Virus record (IMG/VR): IMGVR_UViG_3300026512_000008
Location: 3,494 to 67,493 of that record
Length of the DNA stretch: 64,000 bases
Source of the DNA: a virus
Reading direction: 5' to 3' (one strand)
This document shows, one piece after another, positions 3,212-64,000 of the stretch. Each line of letters begins with the position of its first letter. Positions within the stretch are counted from its first letter, which is position 1. The notes under the pieces were generated by a model that saw only the letters and a program-made list of their open reading frames with translations, searched no databases and was not told the origin of the DNA. The position numbers and the translations under genes were made by a program.

Positions 3212-4111
3212 ATGAAATTAATATACGAAGTAGCAGAAGATAAAGTAATTACGGAACAAGTAATTAATGAGGCTAACGGATCTAAAAAATATCTTATTAA
3301 AGGTATATTTTCAAGTCCTGGAATTAAAAATAAAAATGGTAGAATTTATCCTAAATCAATTTGGGAAAGAGAAGTTACAAAATACCAAGATGTTTTAAAA
3401 TCAGGAAGTTCGAATACTTTACTTGAGTTAAACCATCCGCCAAGACAAGATGTTGATATGATGGAAGCAGTTGCTAAAATGACTAAACTATATATTGATG
3501 GTGATTATGTTATGGGTGAAGCAGTTTTACTAGATAACCCAAAAGCAAACCAACTTAAAACTTTAATTGATAATGGTATTAAAATGTCAGTATCGTCAAG
3601 AGGTGTTGGTAGTGTTAAAAATGGTTTAGTTGAAGATTTTAAACTAATTACATTTGATATAATTCCTAATCAACAACAATCTGACTTAAACGCATCAATG
3701 ATGGGTATTGTAGAAGGTGTTCTTGAAGGTAAAGAATTTGAAATGAATGAGTCAGGATTAATTACTGAAGTTGAAATGTGTACTAAAGATGAATGTACTC
3801 TTTATAATAAAGAAGATATTGTTGAAGCAACTAAACAAAAGTTCAAAGAATTAATGGATAACATGTCTATAAATGAAGCTAAATTACATGATATTATTAG
3901 CTCTTTTGCAGACGAAAACAAAAAAGAAGGTAAAGCAATTATAAAATTAGCACCTTATTTAAAAGATTTTGTTTATGGTAAAGATGTTGCAGATGTAATT
4001 ATTACTGGTAAATTAAATAATACAGAACTTGAAATGTTAGTAAAAACATTTAGAAAAGTTGTAATTATTCCGGATGGTGGTAACACTTTAAGAGTTAAAC
4101 TTTATTTTTAA
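3212..4111 (+). CDS. gp21: Prohead core protease, T4 gp21-like, with C-terminal extension
   Basis: NKNGRIYP, ELNHP and SVSSRGVGS catalytic motifs; start moved to ATG 3212 behind AGGAGG at 3201-3206. Confidence 0.92.
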   Translation: MKLIYEVAEDKVITEQVINEANGSKKYLIKGIFSSPGIKNKNGRIYPKSIWEREVTKYQDVLKSGSSNTLLELNHPPRQDVDMMEAVAKMTKLYIDGDYVMGEAVLLDNPKANQLKTLIDNGIKMSVSSRGVGSVKNGLVEDFKLITFDIIPNQQQSDLNASMMGIVEGVLEGKEFEMNESGLITEVEMCTKDECTLYNKEDIVEATKQKFKELMDNMSINEAKLHDIISSFADENKKEGKAIIKLAPYLKDFVYGKDVADVIITGKLNNTELEMLVKTFRKVVIIPDGGNTLRVKLYF

Positions 4112-4215
4112 CTTACTTAAAACTTATAAATAGAGTATAACATAAAAAAATTAGTATAAATATTAAAAAATCAGTTGAAATAGTTCGAATAGATGGTTTT
4201 TTGTATTTTTAGAAA

Positions 4216-4223
4216 TATAAATA
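4216..4223 (+). promoter_or_regulatory. Late promoter TATAAATA (further copies at 4125 and 4155)
   Basis: Three exact motifs in the gap before scaffold/capsid genes. Confidence 0.65.
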
Positions 4224-4283
4224 AATAAGTATTATATACTTATTACTTGTTAATATAACAAGAAAAATTAAAAGGAGACATAA

Positions 4284-5084
4284 ATGAAGTTAGAAAAATT
4301 ATTTGAATCTTTAGATGAAAAAGTTTTTACTGAAGAACTAAAAAGTAATTTGCAAGAAACATTTGACGCAGCAGTAGCTGAAGCGGCAAAAGTATCTGAT
4401 GAAGAACTTACAGAAAAAGTAGAAACACTTGCTGAAATCAAAGCTGTTGAAATGATTGCTGAAAAAGTCGAAGACAAAATTTCAGAATTAGAAGAAAAAG
4501 CAGAAGAATTTCAAAAAGTACTTGAAGAAGAAGCAAAAGAAAAAGAAGACACATTACTTGACCAAGTAGATTTATACTTAGAAAAAGTAGTAGAAGATTT
4601 TATCGCTGAAGCACAAGAAACTCTTGATGAGTCACTTAAAGCAGAAAAAGCAGATATGATTATCGAAGCAATGGATGCAATGATCGTTGCAACAGGTACA
4701 GACATTCTTAAAATTTCAGAAGCAAAAGATTCTTCGGATGCAGAACTTAAATTAGCAGAATCAATTGAAAAATATGATGAACTAATGGAAGAACACTTAG
4801 CATTAGAAAAAGAAAAATCAGCAATGATGAAAATGGGTATTATAGCAGAAATGAAAGCGGATCTTAATGTTGTTGAAGCAGATAAGTTTGAAAAATTAGC
4901 AGAATTAGTTGATTTTAGTTATGATCCAAGTTATGTTACAAAACTTGAAACATTAAAAGAAAGTTTAGGTGCTTCAAAAATCGTTGAGAAAGTTGAAGAT
5001 AAAAAAGAAGATAAACAAGAACAAATTGTTGAGAAAGTTGAGAAGAAAGTTTCTTTAACTACAGCATTTAGTCACTTAGTTTAA
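4284..5084 (+). CDS. gp22: Prohead core scaffold protein, T4 gp22-like
   Basis: Glu/Lys-rich coiled coil, VDLYLEKVVEDF motif, position between protease and capsid. Confidence 0.85.
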   Translation: MKLEKLFESLDEKVFTEELKSNLQETFDAAVAEAAKVSDEELTEKVETLAEIKAVEMIAEKVEDKISELEEKAEEFQKVLEEEAKEKEDTLLDQVDLYLEKVVEDFIAEAQETLDESLKAEKADMIIEAMDAMIVATGTDILKISEAKDSSDAELKLAESIEKYDELMEEHLALEKEKSAMMKMGIIAEMKADLNVVEADKFEKLAELVDFSYDPSYVTKLETLKESLGASKIVEKVEDKKEDKQEQIVEKVEKKVSLTTAFSHLV

Positions 5085-5104
5085 TTTAAAAAAGGAGAAT
5101 TAAA

Positions 5105-6433
5105 ATGAAAGAAATGAACGAACAAATTTTAGAATTAGTTGAGTCAGAAAAATACGCAGCATTGACTGAAGGTGCAGAAGCATCTTATATGGGTATGATG
5201 TTAGAAAACGCAATGGACGAAGCTGAAAAAGTACTTGCAGAAGGTACAGTTGCATCAGATGTAGCTACATTCACTCCAATCATTATGCCACTTGTAAGAA
5301 GAGTTTATCCAAACCTTATTGCTAATGAACTTTTAGGTGTTCAGCCAATGGCTTTACCAACTGGTTTTATTTACGCACTTACAAACAGATACTTAGGTAA
5401 CAAAAAAGATGGTTCAGTTAGCCCAACTACAAAAGGTCAAATTCTTGTATTTAGCGCAAACACTCCATCAGTAGGTGATACAGTTACAGGTGTTGACGCA
5501 GCAGGCGACGAAGCAACTGCATTAGTAGCTTATGTTGAAGGTAACAAAGTATTAGTTGAAGCAGCAGGTAACTTTTTAGTACCAGCAGGTGATATTTCAG
5601 CAGTATTTACAAATGAATTAGCATTTGGTCAAGTTCTTGTTAATTACACAGGTCCAATGACAACAGCAGAAGCAGAAGTTATCGGCGAAGGTATGAATGA
5701 AGTTGGTTTTGAAATTGCTCGTAAATCAGTTGAAGCAAAATCAAGAGCTCTTAAAGGTAGATATTCAGTAGAAATGTACCAAGATTTAAAATCACAACAC
5801 GGTTTAGCTGCTGATGATGAAATTATGTCATTAATTTCTTACGAAGTACAAGCAGAACTAGATAGAGAAATTGTAAACTTTGTTAACACAAACGCAACTC
5901 CAGTTGCTAACTCTTTTGCACCACAAAATGCAGATGGTAGATGGGAAATTGAAAAATATAGAACAGAAGTTATTAAAATGAAAAAAGAGTCTACTCAAAT
6001 CGGTCTTGATACAAAAAGAGGTCAAGGTAACATTGTTGTTGTTTCTCCAAATGTTGTTACAATGATGGAAGAAGTTGGTTCATTTAAAACTGCTACAAAA
6101 GACAATGGAACTACTCAACCAGTATCTGGTGGTGTTGCAGGAATCTTTGATAACAAATTCAAAGTAGTAGTTGATCAATTCGCTACAACAGACTATGCAA
6201 CAGTTATGTACAAAGGTGCTGATAGAAGAGATTCAATGGGATTCTTTGCTCCATATGTTCCACTTAGTTTCACAAAAGTTACAAACTTTGAAACTGGACA
6301 ACCAGCAATAATTGCTAAAACTAGATACGCTCTAGAAACTATTCCAGGTGTTGAAACTCCTATCAGTAATGATAGAGCAGCTAAATACGCTAGAAACTTT
6401 GGTATTGATTTTACAGGAACTGCACTTCAGTAA
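5105..6433 (+). CDS. gp23: Major capsid protein, T4 gp23-like
   Basis: PLVRRVYPNLIA, GVQPM, AKSRALKG.YSVE..QDLKSQHGL and FFAPYVPL motifs. Confidence 0.97.
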   Translation: MKEMNEQILELVESEKYAALTEGAEASYMGMMLENAMDEAEKVLAEGTVASDVATFTPIIMPLVRRVYPNLIANELLGVQPMALPTGFIYALTNRYLGNKKDGSVSPTTKGQILVFSANTPSVGDTVTGVDAAGDEATALVAYVEGNKVLVEAAGNFLVPAGDISAVFTNELAFGQVLVNYTGPMTTAEAEVIGEGMNEVGFEIARKSVEAKSRALKGRYSVEMYQDLKSQHGLAADDEIMSLISYEVQAELDREIVNFVNTNATPVANSFAPQNADGRWEIEKYRTEVIKMKKESTQIGLDTKRGQGNIVVVSPNVVTMMEEVGSFKTATKDNGTTQPVSGGVAGIFDNKFKVVVDQFATTDYATVMYKGADRRDSMGFFAPYVPLSFTKVTNFETGQPAIIAKTRYALETIPGVETPISNDRAAKYARNFGIDFTGTALQ

Positions 6434-6440
6434 CCAAAAT

Positions 6441-6466
6441 TAATTAAGATCTTCGGATCTTAATTA
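6441..6466 (+). terminator. Hairpin with cUUCGg tetraloop after the capsid gene
   Basis: TAATTAAGATC-TTCG-GATCTTAATTA, perfect 11-bp stem. Confidence 0.75.
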
Positions 6467-6470
6467 TATA

Positions 6471-6492
6471 TTAAGTAAACAAATGTTATAAT
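6471..6492 (+). promoter_or_regulatory. Host-RNAP-type promoter TTAAGTA-N7-GTTATAAT
   Basis: Same motif and spacing recur at 27559, 61965 and 63723. Confidence 0.7.
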
Positions 6493-6496
6493 ATAT

Positions 6497-6578
6497 TTAA
6501 TTATTTAATTGTAGATAGATGAATTCCGACCTCACTATCTATAATTAAATAATTAAAATAATTAAAAAAGAGGTCGGA
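6497..6578 (+). promoter_or_regulatory. 5' leader hairpin/pseudoknot that can occlude the endonuclease RBS
   Basis: 22-bp stem 6497-6518/6535-6556; loop TCCGACCTC (6525-6533) is complementary to GAGGTCGGA (6570-6578), which contains the SD. Confidence 0.65.
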
Positions 6579-57546: not shown

Positions 57547-57770
57547 TGTTATCAAAACAACAACAGCAAGTAAAATGGATTGATATTGTATTTGATAATC
57601 TTGAAAGATTAGAACTTAATATTATTCGTGGTATAGAAAATCAATCGTTTACCGAAGATTCATTATTTAAACTTCAAAATGATTTACAACATCATTATGG
57701 TGCAATTACAAATCTCAGAAAATCATTCGATAAAAATACTTTTTTTACCGGTTATTTTACTGAAAATTAA
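57546..57770 (+). CDS. Small helical protein, paralogue B
   Basis: GGAGAGG RBS; TAATG coupling. Confidence 0.6.
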   Translation: MLSKQQQQVKWIDIVFDNLERLELNIIRGIENQSFTEDSLFKLQNDLQHHYGAITNLRKSFDKNTFFTGYFTEN

Positions 57771-57780
57771 AGGAAATACA

Positions 57781-58371
57781 ATGAAACTTAAATCAATTAG
57801 TCAATGGAATTTAAAAAATAAAGACGGAATAATAGTTGACAGCACAAACAATTTTAATATTCAAGAATTAGGTAATGTAGATTTTTCTAAACCGGGTATT
57901 TTAATTATCGACGATAATGAAGGTATTTGCTCTTTTATTGAGGATGACTTTGAGGAACTAGATGTGAATGGTAAGATTAATTTAAATAATTATAATGTAT
58001 TTGTTTTTTATGGAATTATGTGTGCGTATGATCTTATAGCAACTATTCAAAAATATCCTAATATGAATATACAAAAAGCAATCATAGATATTACATACTC
58101 AGGAACAGTAGAAACAAATAAAGGTAATATAAAATTAAATGGTGTAGATATTTTTGAAATACTTTATGAAATAAATCCTAATCTTGATTATTTATTTTAC
58201 ACAGGTAATCAAATGAATAATCATATTAAAATTATTAGTGAAATTATGAGAAAATACACAAAATTAACTAATAAAAAAATAACAGACGATATATTATTTA
58301 AAACTCAATTTAGTATGAATGACCGTAGAAAATATATAGCAGAACACTTATTTAATATAACAGTACAATAA
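57781..58371 (+). CDS. Single-domain response regulator (receiver)
   Basis: ILIIDD, AIID phosphoacceptor, NGVDI, FYTG, ILFK; start moved to ATG 57781 behind AAGGA. Confidence 0.8.
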   Translation: MKLKSISQWNLKNKDGIIVDSTNNFNIQELGNVDFSKPGILIIDDNEGICSFIEDDFEELDVNGKINLNNYNVFVFYGIMCAYDLIATIQKYPNMNIQKAIIDITYSGTVETNKGNIKLNGVDIFEILYEINPNLDYLFYTGNQMNNHIKIISEIMRKYTKLTNKKITDDILFKTQFSMNDRRKYIAEHLFNITVQ

Positions 58372-58375
58372 AAAT

Positions 58376-59749
58376 ATGAATTTAATTTTAAATAACAATA
58401 TTGTTGAATTTACTAAAAAATATTTTTGGTATTTTATTACGGTTACTTTATTATTAATATTTGTGTTAGGAACTTCTGTTATAACAAGTGTAGATTCACA
58501 TATAAATTATATCAATCATCAAATTAAGCAAAATATTATGGAATATGATGAAATAGATTTATCTCATATTTGTAATTTAAGTGAGTGTACTAAAATATAC
58601 ACGCCTACAGAAACATTTGTTAAAAAAGATTATCTTACTGAAATTAATTACGAAAAACCTAATTTTTTAAAAATAAGTAAAACAGTATATTTAAATAATT
58701 ATCATCTTGTTTTTTATAATGAAGAAGCTAATGTTTACATAGAGAAAATATTTGGTCATCATATATATGATATTATTGTAAATTTAAGTATAATTTTTAT
58801 AATTTTCATTAACATATTTTCTTGGTTTATGTATAAAGCATATAAGCGAGAAAGAAACGAAGCTATGATTACTAATATTGGTAACGAAGCTATTCTTGCT
58901 AATAAATCTATGATTATGATTACAGAAAATGTACACCATGAATTAAATACCCCTATAGATGTAATTGAAAATAAGATTGAAAAAGTACATCGTACCTTAA
59001 ATCAATATATTGTGTCACAAACAGAATGGGCAGAAAAACATAATATGGATAAAAGAGAAACCGTTGAAAGCAGAAAATGGAACCAAAAAATAATTAAATT
59101 AGAAAAGGATTTTGATTTTATTCATACCAGTATAGAACAAATATTATCAGTCCTTAGTAAAATGAAAAACTTTAAAAATCTTAGATATTCAAATGGTGAT
59201 AAATCTGTTTATAATGTTATTGAAGGAGCGTTTCGTATTATATCTGTATCATATTCTAATGTATCATATTATATAGATGATGAATTTAAAAAATATAAAA
59301 TGGGCAAAGACACACTTAAAAATATAGATTTATTAAATGTACTTATTAATCATATTAAAAATTCGTTAGAAGCACAAGCTAGTGAAATTAAAGTTAATAT
59401 GAATCCTAATATTAAAAAGAATATGATGAAATTAGTAATTACTGATAACGGTTCAGGAATTTCAGAAGAAATTAAAAAAAATGTTTTCAATCCTAATTTT
59501 TCTTCAAAACAAATAGGTGATAGTATTCGTGGAAATGGTATGTATTTAAATAAACATATAGTAAAAGAGTTTGGTGGTGATATAAAAATATTACAAACTA
59601 GCACCAAAGGTACGAGTGTTGAAATATCATTTAGGGTTAACATAAAGGAAGATAATAATATTGCTCATAAAATCAATAATAATGAAATTGAAAATGAAAT
59701 TGATAAAATTAGAATCAAAAGTGCTAAAAATAAACAATATAAATACTAA
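58376..59749 (+). CDS. Membrane sensor histidine kinase
   Basis: Two TM segments flanking a periplasmic domain; H-box VHHELNTP, N-box NHIKNSLEA, DNGSGI, FNPNFSSK, RGNGMY. Confidence 0.92.
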   Translation: MNLILNNNIVEFTKKYFWYFITVTLLLIFVLGTSVITSVDSHINYINHQIKQNIMEYDEIDLSHICNLSECTKIYTPTETFVKKDYLTEINYEKPNFLKISKTVYLNNYHLVFYNEEANVYIEKIFGHHIYDIIVNLSIIFIIFINIFSWFMYKAYKRERNEAMITNIGNEAILANKSMIMITENVHHELNTPIDVIENKIEKVHRTLNQYIVSQTEWAEKHNMDKRETVESRKWNQKIIKLEKDFDFIHTSIEQILSVLSKMKNFKNLRYSNGDKSVYNVIEGAFRIISVSYSNVSYYIDDEFKKYKMGKDTLKNIDLLNVLINHIKNSLEAQASEIKVNMNPNIKKNMMKLVITDNGSGISEEIKKNVFNPNFSSKQIGDSIRGNGMYLNKHIVKEFGGDIKILQTSTKGTSVEISFRVNIKEDNNIAHKINNNEIENEIDKIRIKSAKNKQYKY

Positions 59750-59764
59750 AAAGAGAAATTATGT

Positions 59765-60049
59765 ATGAAAAAGGTGTTTTTAACTTTACTATTTGTTGCA
59801 ATAATTATATTACCTGTAGATGCGAAAACATCAGAAATACGCACATATAACTATATGGAAACTTATTTTCACGATAATAATATAAATATTAAAACCAAAA
59901 CTTATAAAGGTTGGATTAGAGTTTTATTGTCTGGTACTAAAAGAAAACAATATCATTTAAATTTGTCAAAAAAACAAATTAATATATATACACACAAATT
60001 AAAAATACTACAAAATAAAAAAATAATATATAAAAATAATAATATATAA
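59765..60049 (+). CDS. Small secreted basic protein
   Basis: Sec signal MKKVFLTLLFVAIIILPVDA; TATAAATA at 59738. Confidence 0.65.
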   Translation: MKKVFLTLLFVAIIILPVDAKTSEIRTYNYMETYFHDNNINIKTKTYKGWIRVLLSGTKRKQYHLNLSKKQINIYTHKLKILQNKKIIYKNNNI

Positions 60050-60107
60050 TATTTTTTAATTAAAAAGTATTTAAGTACAGTTTGTGTAAAATTTTACAAG
60101 TAATTAA

Positions 60108-60304
60108 AATTAAAAATTAATAAAGTTTGTGTTATAATAACAGTAATTAAAAATTAATACTTAAATAATTTTACAATTAATTAAAAATTAATAAAGTTTG
60201 TGTTATAATAACAGTAATTAAAAATTAATACTTAAATAATTTTACAATTAATTAAAAATTAATAAAGTTTGTGTTATAATAACAGTAATTAAAAATTAAT
60301 ACTT
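60108..60304. repeat. 71-bp tandem repeat x about 2.8, each unit with GTGTTATAAT
   Basis: GTTATAAT at 60131, 60202 and 60273. Confidence 0.9.
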
Positions 60305-60334
60305 TGTTTTTAGCTAAGTGTTACAATTTGTTAC

Positions 60335-60510
60335 AAAATAAAAAGAATTTGTAAATTTATACTATTTTAAGTAAAAATTAACACTTTTTTAGTTATAATA
60401 ATATAAATAAAACAATAAAAATAAAAATAAAAAGAATTTGTAAATTTATACTATTTTAAGTAAAAATTAACACTTTTTTAGTTATAATAATATAAATAAA
60501 ACAATAAAAA
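60335..60510. repeat. 89-bp tandem repeat x2 with TTAAG-N6-TTAAC-N11-TATAAT and TATAAATA
   Basis: GTTATAAT at 60392 and 60481. Confidence 0.9.
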
Positions 60511-60525
60511 CAAAAGGAATTTAAA

Positions 60526-60651
60526 ATGTTTACATTAAATATAAAACATATTATTGTTACAAATACGAATAAACAGATTAGTATTCCAACAACTGAACAT
60601 AATGAGAATTATGAACAGTATCAAAATCAAAGAGATACCTTAAAGATTTAA
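60526..60651 (+). CDS. 41-aa leader peptide of tRNA array 1
   Basis: AAGGA RBS; MFTLNIKHIIVTNTNKQISIPTTEHNENYEQYQNQRDTLKI. Confidence 0.7.
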   Translation: MFTLNIKHIIVTNTNKQISIPTTEHNENYEQYQNQRDTLKI

Positions 60652-60691
60652 TTAAAGCGCTTTTAAAAGAGAGTTTTAATTAACTCTTTTT
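60642..60691 (+). promoter_or_regulatory. Attenuator-like alternative hairpins
   Basis: 60648-60658 pairs with 60673-60683 (covers the stop codon), versus 60667-60675 with 60682-60690 ending in a U-run. Confidence 0.6.
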
Positions 60692-60808
60692 GTCTAGCGA
60701 AATTCCTCTAGAACTTGTTCAAGTTCTAAAATTTCCTAAAAACAAAATTAGTTATAATGTTAAAATATACAGAAATGTATAATGTGGTTACTAAGTTATC
60801 CACCATAT

Positions 60809-60883
60809 TGTCTTGTAGCTCAAAGGAAGAGCATTCGGCTGATAACCGGAAGGTTGAGATTTCAAAATTCTCCAAGACAACCA
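60809..60883 (+). tRNA. tRNA-Ile(GAT)
   Basis: Cloverleaf; loop CT-GAT-AA; CCA. Confidence 0.9.
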
Positions 60884-60898
60884 AAAAAAAAAATAAAT

Positions 60899-60975
60899 GC
60901 CGGTTTAGCTCAGATGGTTAGAGCGACTGCCTTGTAAGCAGTAGGCCTGGGGTTCGAATCCTCAAACCGGCACCA
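60899..60975 (+). tRNA. tRNA-Thr(TGT)
   Basis: ACTGC-CTTGTAA-GCAGT; CCA. Confidence 0.95.
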
Positions 60976-60976
60976 T

Positions 60977-61050
60977 GACGCTATAGATTATTGGTAGATC
61001 ACCGTACTTTCAATTCGGTAGGCCGGGGTCAGTACCCGGTAGCGTCACCA
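60977..61050 (+). tRNA. tRNA-Glu(TTC)
   Basis: GACGCTA/TAGCGTC acceptor; loop CT-TTC-AA; atypical T loop. Confidence 0.8.
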
Positions 61051-61053
61051 TTT

Positions 61054-61141
61054 GGATAAGAGGCAACTATTGGTTGGTTGCACCAGACTGTAAATCTGTT
61101 CTCAAAAAGCGTTCGCGGTTCGATTCCGTGCTTATCCACCA
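61054..61141 (+). tRNA. tRNA-Tyr(GTA)
   Basis: Loop CT-GTA-AA; long variable region; CCA. Confidence 0.85.
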
Positions 61142-61146
61142 TATAT

Positions 61147-61220
61147 TGAGGTATAGTATAATGGCATTACATCCGACTTTGACTCGGATAACGGGGGATC
61201 GTTACCTCCTACCTCAACCA
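61147..61220 (+). tRNA. tRNA-Gln(TTG)
   Basis: U1:A72; TCCGA-CTTTGAC-TCGGA; CCA. Confidence 0.9.
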
Positions 61221-61242
61221 TAATAAATGTTAAATATTTTGC

Positions 61243-61315
61243 TCTGCTATAACACAACTGGTAGTGTATCGAGCTGTTAACTCGAAGGTTCCTGGATCGT
61301 ACCCAGGTAGCAGAG
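61243..61315 (+). tRNA. tRNA-Asn(GTT), CCA not encoded
   Basis: TCGAG-CTGTTAA-CTCGA; ends G then CAA. Confidence 0.85.
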
Positions 61316-61364
61316 CAAAGTATTTTCGTAAATATTAAAAATACTAAAAACAAAAGGAAACACT

Positions 61365-61409
61365 ATGAAGAGTGAAAAAATTATAGTCGTTGCTTGGGAG
61401 TTTGATTAA
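61365..61409 (+). CDS. 14-aa leader peptide MKSEKIIVVAWEFD upstream of tRNA-Lys
   Basis: CAAAAGGAAA RBS like the other leaders; 3' half lies within an alternative hairpin. Confidence 0.65.
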   Translation: MKSEKIIVVAWEFD

Positions 61410-61454
61410 CTCTTAGGATGCGACTTAAAATAAAGAACAAATAATTTTTAAGTT

Positions 61455-61532
61455 GCATCCGTGAGTAGAATTGGTTAGTACACTCCGCTTTTAACGGAGA
61501 CTATGTGGGTTCGAGTCCCACCGGATGCACCA
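61455..61532 (+). tRNA. tRNA-Lys(TTT)
   Basis: GCATCCG/CGGATGC; CTCCG-CTTTTAA-CGGAG; CCA. Confidence 0.9.
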
Positions 61533-61536
61533 ATAA

Positions 61537-61629
61537 GCAGGTGTTACTCTAGTTGGTCGACGAGACCGGACTTTTAATCCGGCGTGGATAATATCCCCAT
61601 CGTAGGTTCAAATCCTACCATCTGTACCA
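61537..61629 (+). tRNA. tRNA with TTT (Lys) anticodon and Leu-like long variable arm
   Basis: CCGGA-CTTTTAA-TCCGG; 93 nt; CCA. Confidence 0.8.
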
Positions 61630-61696
61630 AAAAAAAATATATCTAGCATAAAATGTAAGTGAACTTAATAACAGTCACCTATCACTTACATTTTAT

Positions 61697-61771
61697 GGTG
61701 AATATAGTCTAATGGTAAGACGCCAGTCTGTGAAACTGGTTATTCCGGATCATTACCGGATATTCACACCA
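61697..61771 (+). tRNA. tRNA-His(GTG) with G-1 and A73
   Basis: CCAGT-CTGTGAA-ACTGG; CCA. Confidence 0.85.
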
Positions 61772-61777
61772 AAAAAT

Positions 61778-61864
61778 AGTAGCGTGCCTGAGTGGTCCAA
61801 AGGAGCCGGCTGATAACCGGTGACATTTATTGTCTCGTCAGTTCGAATCTGACCGTTACTACCA
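61778..61864 (+). tRNA. tRNA with GAT (Ile) anticodon and long variable arm
   Basis: GCCGG-CTGATAA-CCGGT; GACA/TGTC variable stem; CCA. Confidence 0.8.
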
Positions 61865-61872
61865 AAAAATAT

Positions 61873-61946
61873 GCCGAATTAGTATAATAGAATTATTCTG
61901 CTTTTGTAATGCAGAGACAGGGGAGCGTAACCTCTATTCGGCACCA
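61873..61946 (+). tRNA. tRNA-Thr(TGT), divergent second copy
   Basis: Loop TT-TGT-AA; atypical D and T loops; CCA. Confidence 0.75.
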
Positions 61947-61964
61947 TAAAATTTATAAAAAAAT

Positions 61965-61986
61965 TTAAGTAAATGTTTGTTATAAT
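61965..61986 (+). promoter_or_regulatory. Promoter TTAAGTA-N7-GTTATAAT for tRNA array 2
   Basis: Recurrent motif. Confidence 0.7.
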
Positions 61987-62108
61987 ACAACATAAACAAA
62001 AAAAGGTTAAAAAGAATATACAAATTCTTTTAAGAATATAGTGTTTTTAACACTTTTTATATTTCAAAAATATAAATAAAACAATAAATAAACAAAAAGG
62101 AAATACAG

Positions 62109-62252
62109 ATGTCAAACATATTAAACAACTCATTATCAGTTATGTTACCTGTCGGATCGTTTAGACCTATGGCATCTGTGGCCTTTATACCTGCTATATC
62201 TAGTCTGGATTGTGATTTGGGTATATGGGGAAACTTACCAAGCATTAATTAA
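62109..62252 (+). CDS. 47-aa leader peptide of tRNA array 2
   Basis: AAGGA RBS; MSNILNNSLSVMLPVGSFRPMASVAFIPAISSLDCDLGIWGNLPSIN. Confidence 0.7.
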   Translation: MSNILNNSLSVMLPVGSFRPMASVAFIPAISSLDCDLGIWGNLPSIN

Positions 62253-62300
62253 AACTTTTAAATTCATTTTTAAGAGCTTTAATTAGTTCTTAAAATGTTT
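62246..62300 (+). promoter_or_regulatory. Attenuator-like alternative hairpins
   Basis: 62246-62262 pairs with 62269-62285 (covers the stop codon), versus 62268-62278 with 62285-62295 (TTAATT loop). Confidence 0.6.
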
Positions 62301-62408
62301 CAAAAAGAGTTTTAACTTCGTTTACTTCTTAGAAAGTACAACAAAAACAAAACTTCAAAAACTTTTTACTAACTATAATTTTTATAGAATACTAATGTAT
62401 TCTTAAAT

Positions 62409-62483
62409 GGTCCTATAGCTCAGAGGCAGAGCGTTCCGTTGTCTGCGGAAATGTCGAGATTTCAAAATTCTCTAGGATCGCCA
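62409..62483 (+). tRNA. tRNA-Asp(GTC)
   Basis: TTCCG-TTGTCTG-CGGAA; G73; CCA. Confidence 0.85.
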
Positions 62484-62488
62484 AAAAT

Positions 62489-62584
62489 GGAGACATCAAC
62501 CGAAATTGGTATCGGCCTGGTCTTGAAAACCAGTCATCGGATGAGTAATTCGATGTGTCGGTTCGACCCCGACTGTCTCCTCCA
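62489..62584 (+). tRNA. tRNA-Ser(TGA)
   Basis: CTGGT-CTTGAAA-ACCAG; long variable arm. Confidence 0.9.
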
Positions 62585-62616
62585 GATTTTTGTCAATGAA
62601 GACATAAAAATAATAT

Positions 62617-62691
62617 ATGGGTGTAGGAAAATGGAAATCCGCTACTTTTGGGAAGTAGAGATAGTGAGATCGATACTCACCACCCGTACCA
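62617..62691 (+). tRNA. tRNA-Pro(TGG)
   Basis: CTACT-TTTGGGA-AGTAG; CCA. Confidence 0.85.
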
Positions 62692-62696
62692 TTAAT

Positions 62697-62772
62697 GGAC
62701 AAGTAGCACAATTGGTAGTGCCATCCGCTCATAACGGATAGGTTGCTGGTTCAAATCCAGTCTTGTCCACCA
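62697..62772 (+). tRNA. tRNA-CAT (Ile2 or elongator Met)
   Basis: ATCCG-CTCATAA-CGGAT; paired G1:C72 so not an initiator; C4:G69 favours Ile2. Confidence 0.85.
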
Positions 62773-62787
62773 TTAAGTAAAAATTAT

Positions 62788-62864
62788 GGGGTATAGCTGT
62801 GGGCAGCAGATTTCTTTTGCAAGGAGATTGTTTTAAGTCGGTTCGATTCCGATGTACTCCACCA
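62788..62864 (+). tRNA. tRNA-Ala(TGC), atypical
   Basis: G3:U70; loop TT-TGC-AA; irregular D arm. Confidence 0.7.
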
Positions 62865-62880
62865 TAAAATGTCAAAAAAT

Positions 62881-62955
62881 GGGCTTATAGTATAATTGGG
62901 AATACGCTACCCTTGCAAGGTAGTATTCGGGGTTCAAGTCCCCGTAGGTCCACCA
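62881..62955 (+). tRNA. tRNA-Ala(TGC)
   Basis: G3:U70; CTACC-CTTGCAA-GGTAG. Confidence 0.92.
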
Positions 62956-62974
62956 TAAAGTAAAAAAAATATAT

Positions 62975-63048
62975 GCCCGATTAGTTCAATGGCAGAACAC
63001 TTCGCTTACATCGAAGAGACGAATGATCGATACATTCATTGGGTACCA
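62975..63048 (+). tRNA. tRNA-Val(TAC)
   Basis: CTTCG-CTTACAT-CGAAG; CCA. Confidence 0.88.
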
Positions 63049-63057
63049 AAAATAAAT

Positions 63058-63133
63058 GTTCACTTAGCTAAGATGGTCTAAGCGTCCGGTTGAAGCCCGG
63101 AAGATCCAGGATCGTTACCTGGAGTGAACACCA
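63058..63133 (+). tRNA. tRNA-Phe(GAA)
   Basis: TCCGG-TTGAAGC-CCGGA; CCA. Confidence 0.88.
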
Positions 63134-63155
63134 TTATTACAAATGTTAAAAATAC

Positions 63156-63231
63156 GCGGGTATGACAGAATGACATTATGTGCTAGTCTTCCAAACTAGA
63201 TACCCCGGTTTGATTCCGGGTACCCGCTCCA
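63156..63231 (+). tRNA. tRNA-Gly(TCC)
   Basis: GCGGGTA acceptor, U73; CTAGT-CTTCCAA-ACTAG. Confidence 0.9.
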
Positions 63232-63246
63232 AATAAAGGTAATAAA

Positions 63247-63426
63247 ATGAAAGATGAAATGAACAGGCCAAAAGGTAAGTACACTGAAACTTTTACAAAA
63301 GTTTATAAAGGTGTAACATACACAATGACAGAAACAACTGTTATCGGAAGAGATTCAGAAATTATGAATTTTCAAAGAGAATATAGTCCAGGCATTAAAT
63401 ACCCAATAACATTTGAAGAAATGTAA
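63247..63426 (+). CDS. 59-aa hypothetical protein within the tRNA array
   Basis: AAGGT RBS; MKDEMNRPKGKYTETF...FEEM. Confidence 0.55.
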   Translation: MKDEMNRPKGKYTETFTKVYKGVTYTMTETTVIGRDSEIMNFQREYSPGIKYPITFEEM

Positions 63427-63444
63427 AACACTTAAAAAAAGTAC

Positions 63445-63521
63445 GCTCCTATATGCCAATCGGTAGAGCAGTCCGGCTTAGACCCGGTGCAGTCTCAGTT
63501 CGACTCTGAGTGGGAGTACCA
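63445..63521 (+). tRNA. tRNA-Leu(TAG) with short variable loop
   Basis: CCGG-CTTAGAC-CCGG; 77 nt; CCA. Confidence 0.8.
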
Positions 63522-63534
63522 AAAAATTATAAAA

Positions 63535-63626
63535 GCGGACATGGCGAAGCTGGTTGAAACGCAACGGACTTAAAATCCGTCACAGATAAGTTCACATCGT
63601 AGGTTCAACTCCTACTGTCCGCACCA
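63535..63626 (+). tRNA. tRNA-Leu(TAA)
   Basis: ACGGA-CTTAAAA-TCCGT; long variable region. Confidence 0.9.
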
Positions 63627-63631
63627 AATAT

Positions 63632-63707
63632 AGGTCGTTGGTGTAATTGGTAACATTACGGATTCCAAATCCGTCAGATGCAAGTTCAAATCTTGTGCGA
63701 CCTGCCA
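63632..63707 (+). tRNA. tRNA-Trp(CCA)
   Basis: ACGGA-TTCCAAA-TCCGT; G73. Confidence 0.9.
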
Positions 63708-63722
63708 AAAGTTAATAAGTTT

Positions 63723-63744
63723 TTAAGTAAACTTTAGTTATAAT
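63723..63744 (+). promoter_or_regulatory. Promoter TTAAGTA-N7-GTTATAAT
   Basis: Recurrent motif. Confidence 0.7.
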
Positions 63745-63793
63745 AGTAACATAACAAAAGACACTTTATAAATAAGTGTAATTTTAATAAATA

Positions 63794-63878
63794 TGCCGTC
63801 GTGTATCAACTGGATGATAAACGGTCTTCTAAACCGTAGCGTAAGCTTATGTGGGTTCGAGTCCCTCCGGCGGTACCA
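63794..63878 (+). tRNA. tRNA-Arg(TCT) with extended variable arm
   Basis: ACGGT-CTTCTAA-ACCGT; AGC-GTAA-GCT variable hairpin. Confidence 0.85.
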
Positions 63879-63879
63879 T

Positions 63880-63964
63880 GGAGACGACACCTAAGGTAGG
63901 TAAAGTGATTGCTAATCACTGGCTGGTAACACAGTAGTGGGTTCGATTCTCACCGTCTCCTCCA
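63880..63964 (+). tRNA. tRNA-Ser(GCT)
   Basis: AGTGA-TTGCTAA-TCACT; long variable arm. Confidence 0.88.
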
Positions 63965-64000
63965 TTTGTATATTATAAGGCTACTTTCAACAGCAAAGTA

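What the first reader, a model, noticed from the sequence alone, without database searches (positions are those of the whole stretch)
60526..63964. Leader peptides that mirror their tRNA arrays: candidate attenuation-controlled, tRNA-depletion-sensing phage tRNA operons
Seen: the 25 tRNAs split into array 1 (Ile-GAT, Thr, Glu, Tyr, Gln, Asn, Lys, His) and array 2 (Asp, Ser, Pro, CAT, Ala, Val, Phe, Gly, Leu, Trp, Arg), with no shared anticodon. Each array is preceded by a promoter, an AAGGA RBS and a short ORF missed by the ORF track. Leader 1 (60526-60651): 32 of 41 residues are array-1 amino acids (I6 T6 N6 Q4 E3 K3 Y2 H2), all eight are represented, there is an unbroken run TTEHNENYEQYQNQ, and A/G/W/C are absent. 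Leader 62109-62252: 36 of 47 residues are array-2 amino acids (S8 L6 P4 M3 A3 V3 G3 F2 D2 W1 R1), all are represented, and K, E, Q, Y, T and H are entirely absent, which is striking in this Lys/Tyr-rich proteome. Ile codons also split: 5 of 6 are ATT in leader 1 (array 1 has GAU tRNAs), 4 of 5 are ATA in the second leader (array 2 has the CAU, probably Ile2, tRNA). Established: trp/his/ilv/pheST attenuators sense charged tRNA through leader-peptide stalling, and host anticodon nucleases (PrrC, PARIS AriB, VapC, colicins D/E5) deplete tRNAs. Inference: each leader acts as an OR-sensor that switches on the matching tRNA array when any of its tRNAs runs short. I know of no description of this for phage tRNA arrays. 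Caveats: I/N/K/Y are common by default in AT-rich ORFs, so leader 1 alone is weaker evidence, and Arg/Ser(GCT) lie behind a further promoter at 63723.
Basis: partly seen in the sequence, partly recalled or inferred. Interest (0 to 1): 0.95.

Follow-up and report, generated by a model that had tools for sequence, protein, structure and literature searches.

The report
Codon-matched leader ORFs before phage tRNA arrays
In this uncultured T4-like phage each block of tRNA genes follows a tiny translated gene spelled mostly in the amino acids those tRNAs carry, and relatives change the tiny gene when the tRNA block changes, so it probably works as a ribosome-based gauge of tRNA supply.

Summary
There are 25 tRNAs in two arrays with no shared anticodon. 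L1 (60526-60651) has 32 of 41 array-1 residues and L2 (62109-62252) has 36 of 47 array-2 residues. The array split is the single best of 75,582 possible amino-acid splits for telling the two peptides apart.

In two related IMG/VR contigs, small ORFs in the same positions match their own different arrays: 41/41, 32/35 and 43/51 residues. Each of five leaders scores best against its own array.

A blind screen of unrelated phage contigs found independent cases with canonical terminators.

What is not shown is the output. In this window the hairpins are AU-rich, the terminator and antiterminator assignment is ambiguous, promoter-like boxes lie between leaders and tRNAs, and no RNA data exist.

Best reading: leader-peptide attenuation-like control of tRNA arrays, with confidence about 0.6.

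Seven literature searches found no published account. The scan's own notes report the same design on other DNA (91 notes, at least 86 genomes). These are AI notes that I did not check.

The parts
60108..60320 (+). Three tandem 71-nt repeats, each with an extended -10-like TGTTATAAT (boxes at 60131, 60202, 60273)
   Evidence: the repeat finder family D1; GTTATAAT matches; promoter scan rows with TG before the -10
60335..60512 (+). Two tandem 89-nt promoter modules, each with GTTATAAT (60392, 60481) and the T4-type late motif TATAAATA (60402, 60491). The second runs into the L1 ribosome-binding site.
   Evidence: the repeat finder D2, 99% identical copies; a third copy lies at 62004-62092 before L2
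60526..60651 (+). Leader ORF L1, 41 aa, AAGGA 7 nt upstream. 32 of 41 residues are array-1 amino acids and all 8 kinds are present.
   Evidence: Called as a gene, with two 44-aa variants that keep the frame. The only change in runs X2, X4 and X5 is synonymous, at 60591.
60642..60691 (+). AU-rich hairpin of about 20 bp whose 5' arm holds the last L1 codons and the stop. Inside it lies a shorter alternative hairpin, followed by a run of five T.
   Evidence: fold; folds with ribosome masks; stop-in-5'-arm count. No differences listed in the relatives laid.
60709..60728 (+). Second hairpin, 9 bp
   Evidence: sequence. In run X2, 60711 G>A and 60726 C>T change both sides of one pair, a compensatory change read by eye.
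60751..60783 (+). Two -10-like boxes (GTTATAAT at 60751, TGTATAAT at 60776) between L1 and the first tRNA. Possible leader-independent promoters.
   Evidence: A GTTATAAT sits at the same place after the L1 counterpart of G006.
60809..61316 (+). Array 1a: tRNA Ile-GAT, Thr-TGT, Glu-TTC, Tyr-GTA, Gln-TTG, Asn-GTT
   Evidence: ARAGORN; Rfam
61365..61409 (+). Micro-ORF L3 (14 aa) between tRNA-Asn and the two tRNA-Lys. Conserved in both relatives at the same place. Its composition is not array-matched.
61455..61943 (+). Array 1b: tRNA Lys x2, His, Ile-GAT (long arm), and a tRNA with a 9-nt anticodon loop
61979..62108 (+). Promoter module before L2: TGTTATAAT at 61979, module copy 62004-62092 with TATAAATA at 62071, then AAGGA
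62109..62252 (+). Leader ORF L2, 47 aa. 36 of 47 residues are array-2 amino acids and all 11 kinds are present.
   Evidence: No sequence homologue but itself in two protein searches. Weak similarity to the G001 in-array leader: 53% over 17 aa, E 0.014 in a 10-sequence database.
62240..62342 (+). AU-rich hairpin over the L2 stop codon (about 62240-62291) and a second hairpin (62320-62342). No clear T run follows either.
62374..62379 (+). TATAAT box 29 nt before tRNA-Asp
62409..63228 (+). Array 2a: tRNA Asp, Ser-TGA, Pro, CAT (Met or Ile2, not resolved), Ala x2, Val, Phe, Gly-TCC
63247..63426 (+). 59-aa gene inside array 2. It belongs to a conserved small-protein family and is not a leader (0 of 58 residues are Leu or Trp).
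63445..63964 (+). Array 2b and 2c: tRNA Leu-TAG, Leu-TAA, Trp; then GTTATAAT at 63737 and TATAAATA at 63767; then Arg-TCT and Ser-GCT. The contig ends at 64000.

Best explanation
L1 and L2 are translated leader ORFs that gauge the supply of the tRNA species encoded behind them.

Transcripts start at the tandem sigma-70-like promoters and at a T4-type late promoter, and begin with the leader. A ribosome reads a peptide written almost wholly in codons of the downstream tRNAs, with every kind represented. The stop codon lies in the 5' arm of a hairpin. A ribosome that reaches the stop therefore melts that hairpin and lets an alternative downstream hairpin form. A ribosome held up earlier, at a codon whose tRNA is scarce, leaves the hairpin intact. 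Which structure forms sets how much upstream transcription continues into the array.

The most likely sign is the classical one: slow decoding gives more read-through, which is negative feedback on tRNA supply.

Shown: the ORFs, their composition, the covariation with array content in relatives, the stop-in-hairpin layout, and the promoters.

Inferred: translation, termination as the output, the sign, and any tie to host tRNA-cleaving defences.
For: (1) Composition. L1 has 32/40 and L2 35/46 residues (Met1 excluded) from their own arrays, with 8/8 and 11/11 kinds present. These counts are rare in proteome windows (11/16,538 and 90/16,190). The array split is the best of 75,582 splits.

(2) Covariation.
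- G001 (portal 42% identical) has a 42-aa ORF before its array with 41/41 residues in the array set (11/11 kinds). It also has a 36-aa ORF inside the array with 32/35 residues in the six kinds that follow. 0 of 18,338 and 0 of 18,788 proteome windows reach these counts.
- G006 has a 52-aa ORF with 43/51 in-set residues and 10/10 kinds, against 0/6,580 windows.
- Each of the 5 leaders has its highest z-score with its own array.
- For amino acids present in one array but not the other, leader counts shift the expected way in 35 of 37 comparisons over four leader pairs. The pairs share members, so the comparisons are not independent.

(3) Codon level.
- All 16 Ile codons of the two G001 leaders are ATY, while ATA is 33% of Ile codons genome-wide and the array holds only Ile-GAT.
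- The G006 leader uses CTN for 4 of 5 Leu, and its array holds only Leu-TAG.
- The window's L2 uses ATA for 4 of 5 Ile, and its array holds the CAT tRNA.

(4) Layout. At least 7 of the 9 nt around the stop lie in a 5' hairpin arm in 8 of 9 leaders of the clade, against 15 of 61 ordinary genes of the window. GTTATAAT, plus TATAAATA 29-40 nt before the ATG, precedes 5 of 6 long leaders.

(5) L1 is kept as an ORF. Two variants carry an in-frame 3-aa insertion, and the only change in X2, X4 and X5 is synonymous.

(6) Independent cases.
- In a blind screen of 120 unrelated IMG/VR tRNA loci plus the clade, 50 SD-preceded ORFs stood before runs of 3 or more tRNAs. The median p was 0.37, but 5 had p<0.001, among them a Thr/Lys-repeat leader before Thr x3 and Lys x2 tRNAs.
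- That leader has a sigma-70-type promoter, a GC-rich terminator with seven U, and an antiterminator inside the ORF end.
- In that 296-kb record and a 231-kb one, all 8 leaders examined are followed by a GC-stem, U-run hairpin.
Against: - -10-like boxes lie between leader and first tRNA for L1 (60751, 60776) and L2 (62374), and after the G006 L1 counterpart. Arrays may therefore be transcribed without passing the leader.
- The window's hairpins are AU-rich. L2 has no clear U run. For L1 both alternative structures end at the same 3' boundary, so no clean terminator/antiterminator pair can be named. The consensus terminator scan found none after either leader.
- MFE models give the opposite sign for the G001 leader: a hairpin plus U run forms when the ribosome is upstream.
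- In run X2 the second half of L2 and the spacer up to tRNA-Asp are replaced by 816 other letters, while array-2 tRNAs remain. Codon 5 of L2 reads Gln, an array-1 amino acid, in X2, X4 and X6.
- The G006 L1 counterpart does not match the three tRNAs directly behind it (6/39, p 0.36). L3 and the 59-aa ORF are not matched.
- Array-1 amino acids are those with A-rich codons, and L1 DNA is 48% A against 28% for L2. Part of the window's own match could therefore follow from base composition.
- Vibrio phage Va1 (portal 55%) and KVP40 show no such leaders.
- There is no expression or ribosome data.
Confidence: 0.58

Rival explanations
1. The leaders do sense decoding of array codons, but the output is not intrinsic termination. 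The alternative hairpins could instead control Rho access, RNase processing or stability of the precursor, or folding of the first tRNA.
For: The window's hairpins are AU-rich and L2 lacks a U run. Hairpin 60709-60728, kept by a compensatory change, has no U run after it. Around the conserved micro-ORF L3, a segment can pair either with the ORF end or with the 5' end of tRNA-Lys in all three genomes (and by eye).
Against: The independent cases in G007 and G008 all have canonical terminators. The G006 L1 counterpart has a 13-bp stem with nine U.
Confidence: 0.2
2. The sensor works with the opposite sign. A ribosome that reaches the stop codon blocks the hairpin next to it and lets polymerase through, so arrays are transcribed only while their tRNAs decode well. 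This would be feed-forward rather than homeostasis.
For: In G001 the hairpin plus U run starts right at the stop codon and forms only when the ribosome is upstream. A paper's abstract reports that a terminator placed a few bases after a gene is almost fully repressed (PMC4824070; seen only as a search listing and abstract).
Against: The G006 L1 counterpart and the G007 Thr/Lys leader have the classical arrangement, with the antiterminator covered by a ribosome at the stop. Positive feedback on a depleted tRNA would be self-defeating.
Confidence: 0.12
3. L1 and L2 are ordinary small ORFan genes carried in reusable promoter/stem-loop cassettes of a T4-like hyperplastic region (PeSL-like). Their match to the arrays is coincidence helped by base composition.
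For: The promoter module is repeated three times. Contigs in X2, X4 and X6 share the module and then run on into other sequence (loose ends at 60500-60528). X2 replaces the L2 3' half. A late promoter and SD are what any late gene has. The L1/L2 difference follows A content. PeSL cassettes are described in PMC2839356 (passages read) and PMC4122927 (abstract read).
Against: This cannot explain 41/41, 32/35 and 43/51 matches to different arrays in relatives, the own-array maxima in 5 of 5 leaders, the Ile and Leu codon choices, or the independent cases. The G001 in-array leader set (Glu, Ile, Ala, Pro, Phe, Thr) cuts across the A-rich/A-poor axis.
Confidence: 0.06
4. The peptides themselves are the functional product, for example small proteins acting on tRNA metabolism, and their odd compositions reflect that function.
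For: The first 12-13 residues of L1 are 75% identical to the G006 counterpart. Both ORFs have late promoters like structural genes.
Against: Composition changes wholesale with array content while sequence is barely conserved. L2 has no homologue in 5.8 billion proteins.
Confidence: 0.03

Closest known systems
Multivalent leader-peptide transcription attenuators of enterobacterial amino-acid operons (thr leader with Thr/Ile codons, ilvGMEDA leader with Ile/Leu/Val; also trpL, hisL, pheL). Recalled knowledge; general principle as in the abstract of PMC1183508 (listing).
   Same: A short SD-preceded ORF sits at the 5' end of the transcript. It is enriched in codons whose decoding reports on the product of the downstream genes. 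Its stop codon is embedded in alternative RNA hairpins, and several amino acids are sensed by one leader.
   Different: The regulated genes are the tRNAs themselves, not biosynthetic enzymes. The leaders are long (41-52 codons) and list 6-11 amino-acid kinds spread along the ORF, rather than holding a tight run. In this window no GC-rich terminator is evident and promoter-like boxes follow the leader.
pheST attenuation and T-box riboswitches (recalled)
   Same: Both tie expression of a translation component to the state of the cognate tRNA pool.
   Different: They control aminoacyl-tRNA synthetase genes. T-boxes bind uncharged tRNA directly, without a leader ORF. No T-box or other cis-regulatory Rfam family reached its threshold in 59700-64000.
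PeSL cassettes (promoter-early stem-loops) of T4-type phages: PMC2839356 (passages), PMC4122927 (abstract)
   Same: Repeated sigma-70-like promoter units with stem-loops flank small ORFs in a variable region of a T4-like genome. Relatives differ by replacements beside these units.
   Different: PeSLs are described as recombination and regulatory cassettes around ORFans, with GC-rich stem-loops and no link to tRNA content ('tRNA' occurs 0 times in the main text of PMC2839356). Here the ORFs co-vary with the tRNAs behind them.
The scan's own earlier notes on codon-matched leader attenuators before phage tRNA arrays (e1-5933058, e1-5378520, e1-5675529 and others). These are unpublished AI notes.
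   Same: The same design: a small leader written in the codons of the downstream tRNA block, plus a switchable hairpin.
   Different: Those notes concern other genomes (crAss-like, jumbo and huge phages). This case is an AT-rich T4-like clade. It has very long inventory leaders, both early-type and T4 late-type promoters, weak AU-rich hairpins, and direct covariation across three related genomes.

Membership tests
Ribosome-mediated leader-peptide transcription attenuator | Short ORF with a ribosome-binding site at the 5' end of the regulated transcript | tested here: met
   AAGGA lies 7 nt before both ATGs. Promoter-like boxes and TATAAATA lie upstream. Co-transcription with the tRNAs is itself not shown.
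Ribosome-mediated leader-peptide transcription attenuator | Regulatory codons cognate to what the downstream genes supply | tested here: met
   32/40 and 35/46 in-set residues with all kinds present. Counterparts in relatives reach 41/41, 32/35 and 43/51. Each leader matches its own array best in 5 of 5.
Ribosome-mediated leader-peptide transcription attenuator | Intrinsic terminator between the leader and the regulated genes | tested here: inconclusive
   L1 has a weak AU-rich hairpin plus five T. L2 has a hairpin without a clear T run. The consensus scan found none there. The feature is clear in the G006 L1 counterpart and in 8 of 8 leaders of G007 and G008.
Ribosome-mediated leader-peptide transcription attenuator | Mutually exclusive antiterminator whose formation depends on ribosome position | tested here: inconclusive
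   The stop codon lies in a 5' hairpin arm in 8 of 9 clade leaders against 15 of 61 control genes, and masked folds do switch. For L1 both structures share the same 3' end, for L2 the inner hairpin persists, and the sign differs between relatives. These are MFE models only.
Ribosome-mediated leader-peptide transcription attenuator | No independent promoter between the leader and the regulated genes | tested here: not met
   GTTATAAT at 60751 and TGTATAAT at 60776 follow L1, and TATAAT at 62374 follows L2. These are consensus matches only and their activity is unknown. No such box occurs in 3 of 6 spacers of the clade.
Ribosome-mediated leader-peptide transcription attenuator | Read-through responds to supply of the cognate charged tRNA | not testable with these tools
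   No RNA run holds the stretch. The phage is uncultured.
PeSL regulatory cassette (T4-type phages) | [quoted passage not shown] | tested here: met
   Repeat families D1 and D2 carry -10 boxes. Hairpins follow each small ORF.
PeSL regulatory cassette (T4-type phages) | Flanks ORFans and marks the breakpoints of indels or replacements between close relatives | tested here: inconclusive
   X2 shows replacements at 60764/60791 and 62179/62407, and the module is joined to other sequence in X2, X4 and X6. The contig sequences could not be read, so the breakpoints are approximate.
PeSL regulatory cassette (T4-type phages) | GC-rich (polyG...polyC) stem-loop acting as a terminator | tested here: not met
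   The stems here are AU-rich. The GC-rich motif is as described in PMC2839356 (passages).

The most novel reading that the evidence does not exclude
Some large phages autoregulate their tRNA genes with 'inventory' leader peptides, short ORFs that list the codons of every tRNA in the block behind them. A shortage of any one of those tRNAs, whether from codon-usage mismatch with the host or from host tRNA-cleaving defences, stalls the ribosome and opens transcription into the block. In this AT-rich T4-like clade the leaders are also driven by a late promoter, so tRNA supply would be demand-controlled late in infection. This would be a regulatory principle for tRNA genes that I could not find in print.
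Probability: 0.5. Interest if true: 0.9.

Novelty: new variant of a known kind. Interest (0 to 1): 0.82.

Why it matters
Control of tRNA genes is usually described in terms of promoter strength and growth rate. A leader peptide that reads out the very tRNAs encoded behind it would be a direct feedback loop on tRNA supply, and it would explain why phage tRNA genes are grouped as they are.

It gives a sequence-level rule (leader composition equals array content) that can be screened for across viromes. It also makes testable the question of what phage tRNA arrays are for: topping up scarce decoders, or replacing tRNAs lost to host defences.

The three-genome covariation found here is the kind of evidence that single examples lack.

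Tried and rejected
Searches for relatives that gave nothing useful
- GenBank phages, by DNA: only scattered single-tRNA matches.
- The search for related loci in IMG/VR with the kinase-like gene 58376-59749, with the 59-aa ORF, and with an alignment of that ORF's family: none.
- A tRNA T-arm 17-mer: 120 loci, all unrelated phages. These loci later served as the blind-screen set.
- A back-translated L1 pattern: 0 hits in viral and in metagenome contigs.
- Promoter-module patterns: 0 viral hits. There was 1 metagenome hit, L133, with no tRNA, taken as a chance match.
- The 18-mer around the L3 start in genome contigs: 73 loci, 0 of them with 3 or more tRNAs.
- L2 protein searches, near and longer lengths: only itself.
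- The four close portal relatives lie on contigs of 4-12 kb without tRNAs.

Expression
No RNA holder was listed among the sequencing runs, so nothing can be said about expression.

Cultured relatives
Vibrio phage Va1 and KVP40 were screened and no matched leader was found. This says only that the design is not universal.

Readings considered and set aside
- Chance ORFs in AT-rich spacer. Rejected.
- Base composition alone. It accounts for part of the L1/L2 contrast, but not for the relatives' sets.
- A PeSL cassette only. Kept as a minor rival.

Limits of what I could see
- I could not read the X2, X4, X5 or X6 contigs themselves. 85 substitutions and 51 indels were not shown, so how L2 varies in those runs is largely unknown.
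- Supplementary files of papers were not consulted.
- My first hand count for one G007 leader was wrong (Ala 7). The recount is Val 6, Ala 6, Ile 2, that is 14 of 27.

Full report
What the window is. The window is the last 64 kb of a 67.5-kb viral contig that ends just after the last tRNA. It is a T4-like myovirus fragment. The sheath end and portal lie in the first 3.5 kb, tail and fibre families hit in PHROGs, and GC is about 27%. DNA runs that hold the stretch are labelled hydrothermal vent and marine sediment metagenomes. Nearly all long ORFs are on the + strand.

The observation. ARAGORN finds 23 tRNAs. They fall into two arrays that share no anticodon. Both have AAGGA 7 nt before the ATG. 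That is the same distance at which the motif stands before structural genes of this phage (positions compared by eye). Of 13 + strand GTTATAAT boxes in 64 kb, 8 lie in 60131-63744, inside tandem 71-nt and 89-nt repeats. About 95 nt upstream of L1 and L2 are homologous.

Is it more than chance? Against this phage's proteome the binomial p-values are 9e-5 for L1 and 1.4e-4 for L2. Only 11 of 16,538 and 90 of 16,190 proteome windows reach the same counts. Among 136 small ATG ORFs in six frames, L1 is the single most array-1-rich, and L2 is one of two at its level. Of 75,582 ways to split 19 amino acids into 8 and 11, the genomic split of the tRNAs is the one that best separates the two peptides. 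One confound is real. Array-1 amino acids are largely those with A in codon position 1 or 2, and L1 DNA is 48% A against 28% for L2. The window alone therefore could not exclude base composition as a shared cause.

Relatives decide it. Close relatives exist only as short contigs. Protein look-ups gave two 44-aa variants of L1 that keep the frame through a 3-residue insertion. L2 has no homologue in two searches.

Laying contigs of four runs on the region showed the following:
- L1 differs only by one synonymous change in X2, X4 and X5.
- Hairpin 60709-60728 carries a compensatory pair change in X2.
- In X2 the second half of L2 and the spacer are replaced by 816 letters.
- Codon 5 of L2 reads Gln in three runs.

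A more distant relative, G001 (portal 42% identical, 79.7-kb IMG/VR contig), carries 17-20 tRNAs. Immediately before its main array is a 42-codon ORF behind the same kind of promoters, TATAAATA and SD. All 41 of its residues after Met1 are amino acids with a tRNA in that array. These include Asp, Phe, Ala and Pro, which L1 nearly lacks and the window's array 1 lacks. It has no His, and that array has no tRNA-His. Inside the array, a 36-codon ORF has 32 of 35 residues from exactly the six kinds that follow (Glu, Ile, Ala, Pro, Phe, Thr). No proteome window of G001 reaches either count (0/18,338 and 0/18,788).

An 18-mer shared by the window and G001 around the L3 start found a third member, G006. 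It has 26 tRNAs by ARAGORN and three further tRNA matches by Rfam. Its 52-codon ORF before Ser, Ile, His, Glu, Gln, Gly, Leu, Pro, Asn, Arg has 43 of 51 in-set residues and all 10 kinds (the Asn tRNA is Rfam-only and its anticodon was read by eye). Its L1 counterpart shares 9 of 12 N-terminal residues with L1, but it does not match the three tRNAs directly behind it (6/39). That array is broken up by inserted genes.

Across the five long leaders, each scores highest against its own array (z = 3.7 to 7.1). For amino acids present in only one of two arrays, the leader counts differ in the expected direction in 35 of 37 comparisons. The four pairs share members, so the comparisons are not independent.

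Codon choice follows too:
- 16 of 16 Ile codons in the G001 leaders are ATY, with ATA at 33% genome-wide and only Ile-GAT in the array.
- 4 of 5 Leu codons are CTN in G006, with only Leu-TAG in the array.
- 4 of 5 Ile codons are ATA in L2, with the CAT tRNA in the array.

The G001 and G006 sets cut across the A-rich/A-poor axis, so base composition cannot be the whole story.

Independent cases. The 120 unrelated IMG/VR loci served as a blind control. Together with the three clade sources (the window, L144, L154), 50 SD-preceded ORFs of 20-70 codons stood before runs of 3 or more tRNAs. The median p was 0.37, as a null should give, but five rows had p<0.001. Two of these are the same leader in two records. 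It consists of four Thr-Thr-Lys repeats before Thr-GGT, Thr-CGT, Thr-TGT, Lys-TTT and Lys-CTT, and it uses all four Thr and both Lys codons. It has a sigma-70-type promoter, a 9-bp GC-rich stem plus seven U just before the first tRNA, and a segment inside the ORF end that pairs with the terminator's 5' arm. Its neighbours are ORFans and a homing-endonuclease-like gene.

Scanning that 296-kb record and a 231-kb one found matched leaders before most tRNA clusters (counts beyond the script's run definition are by hand):
- a Val/Ala/Ile leader with 14/27;
- an Arg, Trp, Ile, Val, Asp, Met, His leader with 18/25 and all seven kinds;
- a Cys/Tyr/Leu/Ser leader with 15/24;
- a Glu/Pro run;
- a Phe leader with 3/13;
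- an Ala/Gly/Val leader with 23/41;
- a Tyr/Leu leader with 10/28.
All 8 leaders are followed by a GC-rich stem, U-run hairpin.

The scan's own notebook holds 91 notes of the same design in at least 86 other genomes. Several follow-ups reached the same reading. These are AI notes that I did not check.

How it probably works, and what is weak. In 8 of 9 leaders of the clade, at least 7 of the 9 nt around the stop codon lie in the 5' arm of a hairpin, against 15 of 61 ordinary genes. Folds with the ribosome footprint masked switch to a downstream alternative. For the G006 L1 counterpart this is textbook. The stop-codon segment pairs with the 5' arm of a 13-bp terminator with nine U, so a ribosome at the stop frees the terminator and a ribosome stalled 10 codons earlier does not.

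For the window's own leaders the picture is less clean. The L1 long hairpin and its short alternative end at the same 3' boundary before five T. The L2 inner hairpin persists in all states and has no clear U run. In G001 the model gives the opposite sign. These are MFE predictions on AU-rich RNA.

Promoter-like boxes lie between leader and first tRNA for L1 and L2 and for the G006 L1 counterpart, but not in the other three spacers. A plausible but untested reading is that the arrays have a leader-independent early promoter, while flux from the strong upstream promoters and the late promoter passes the leader.

Comparison with what is known. The logic is that of multivalent leader-peptide attenuators (thr, ilv; recalled). 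The target (tRNA genes) and the long inventory-type leaders are what is new. The repeated promoter and stem-loop units resemble PeSL cassettes (PMC2839356 passages; PMC4122927 abstract), and that may be how these units spread. PeSLs do not, however, explain the covariation.

Seven full-text searches found no account of leader-peptide control of tRNA genes in phages. The library lacks most subscription journals, so this is not proof of absence.

Verdict. The sensor reading is well supported by covariation. The attenuation output and its sign in this window are inferred. The link to anticodon nucleases is speculation.

Noticed in passing
window 61873-61943: This tRNA is missed by ARAGORN but scores 44 bits in Rfam. 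Its anticodon arm has a 5-bp stem and a 9-nt loop, read by eye. In run X2 three consecutive stem pairs are changed on both sides (61899-61901 with 61911-61913), so the stem is real. Its decoding identity is unknown.
   Followed up: partly
window 61365-61409; L144 11936-11968 (-); L154 3096-3131 (-): The 10-14-codon micro-ORF between tRNA-Asn and two tRNA-Lys is conserved in all three genomes (70-80% identity over 9-10 aa) and has Lys codons at positions 2 and 5. A downstream segment can pair either with the ORF end or with the 5' flank and start of tRNA-Lys. The paired letters differ between genomes while complementarity is kept (by eye).
   Followed up: partly
window 63247-63426: The 59-aa ORF inside array 2 belongs to a conserved small-protein family. 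There are 21 hits at E<=0.001, mostly 55-94 aa at 35-64% identity, with an invariant D3, R7, G10, G34, Y46 core. Function is unknown, and there is no PHROG hit.
   Followed up: partly
window 60444-60528 and 62020-62108: The promoter / late-promoter / SD module is reused. Contigs in runs X2, X4 and X6 match it and then continue into unrelated sequence right at or before the ATG, and depth over it is far above its neighbours. It looks like a mobile regulatory cassette (PeSL-like).
   Followed up: partly
window 61778-61864, 62489-62584, 63795-63878: In run X2 the long-arm tRNA-Ile is absent (94 nt skipped). The stretches holding tRNA-Ser-TGA and the long tRNA-Arg are replaced by 159 and 81 other letters. 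Array content therefore varies even among near-identical phages.
   Followed up: no
L154 2666-2750 (-); L174 and L175: There are suppressor-type tRNAs. One in G006 has anticodon TTA (reads UAA) and sits next to a CAT tRNA. The two huge-phage records G007 and G008 carry CTA anticodons (read UAG).
   Followed up: no
window 57679-59749: Directly upstream of the promoter cluster are a 230-aa ORF with no PHROG hit and a 457-aa ORF with a kinase-family hit in its C-terminal part (E 7e-13). I did not examine them further.
   Followed up: no
L154 (G006) 3540-6500 (-) and Va1 190125-190790: Endonuclease-like genes are interspersed among tRNAs. In G006 the ORFs are Cys/His-rich (by eye). In Vibrio phage Va1 an annotated SegB homing endonuclease sits there. 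This may explain why the G006 array is fragmented and why its L1 counterpart no longer matches the tRNAs next to it.
   Followed up: no
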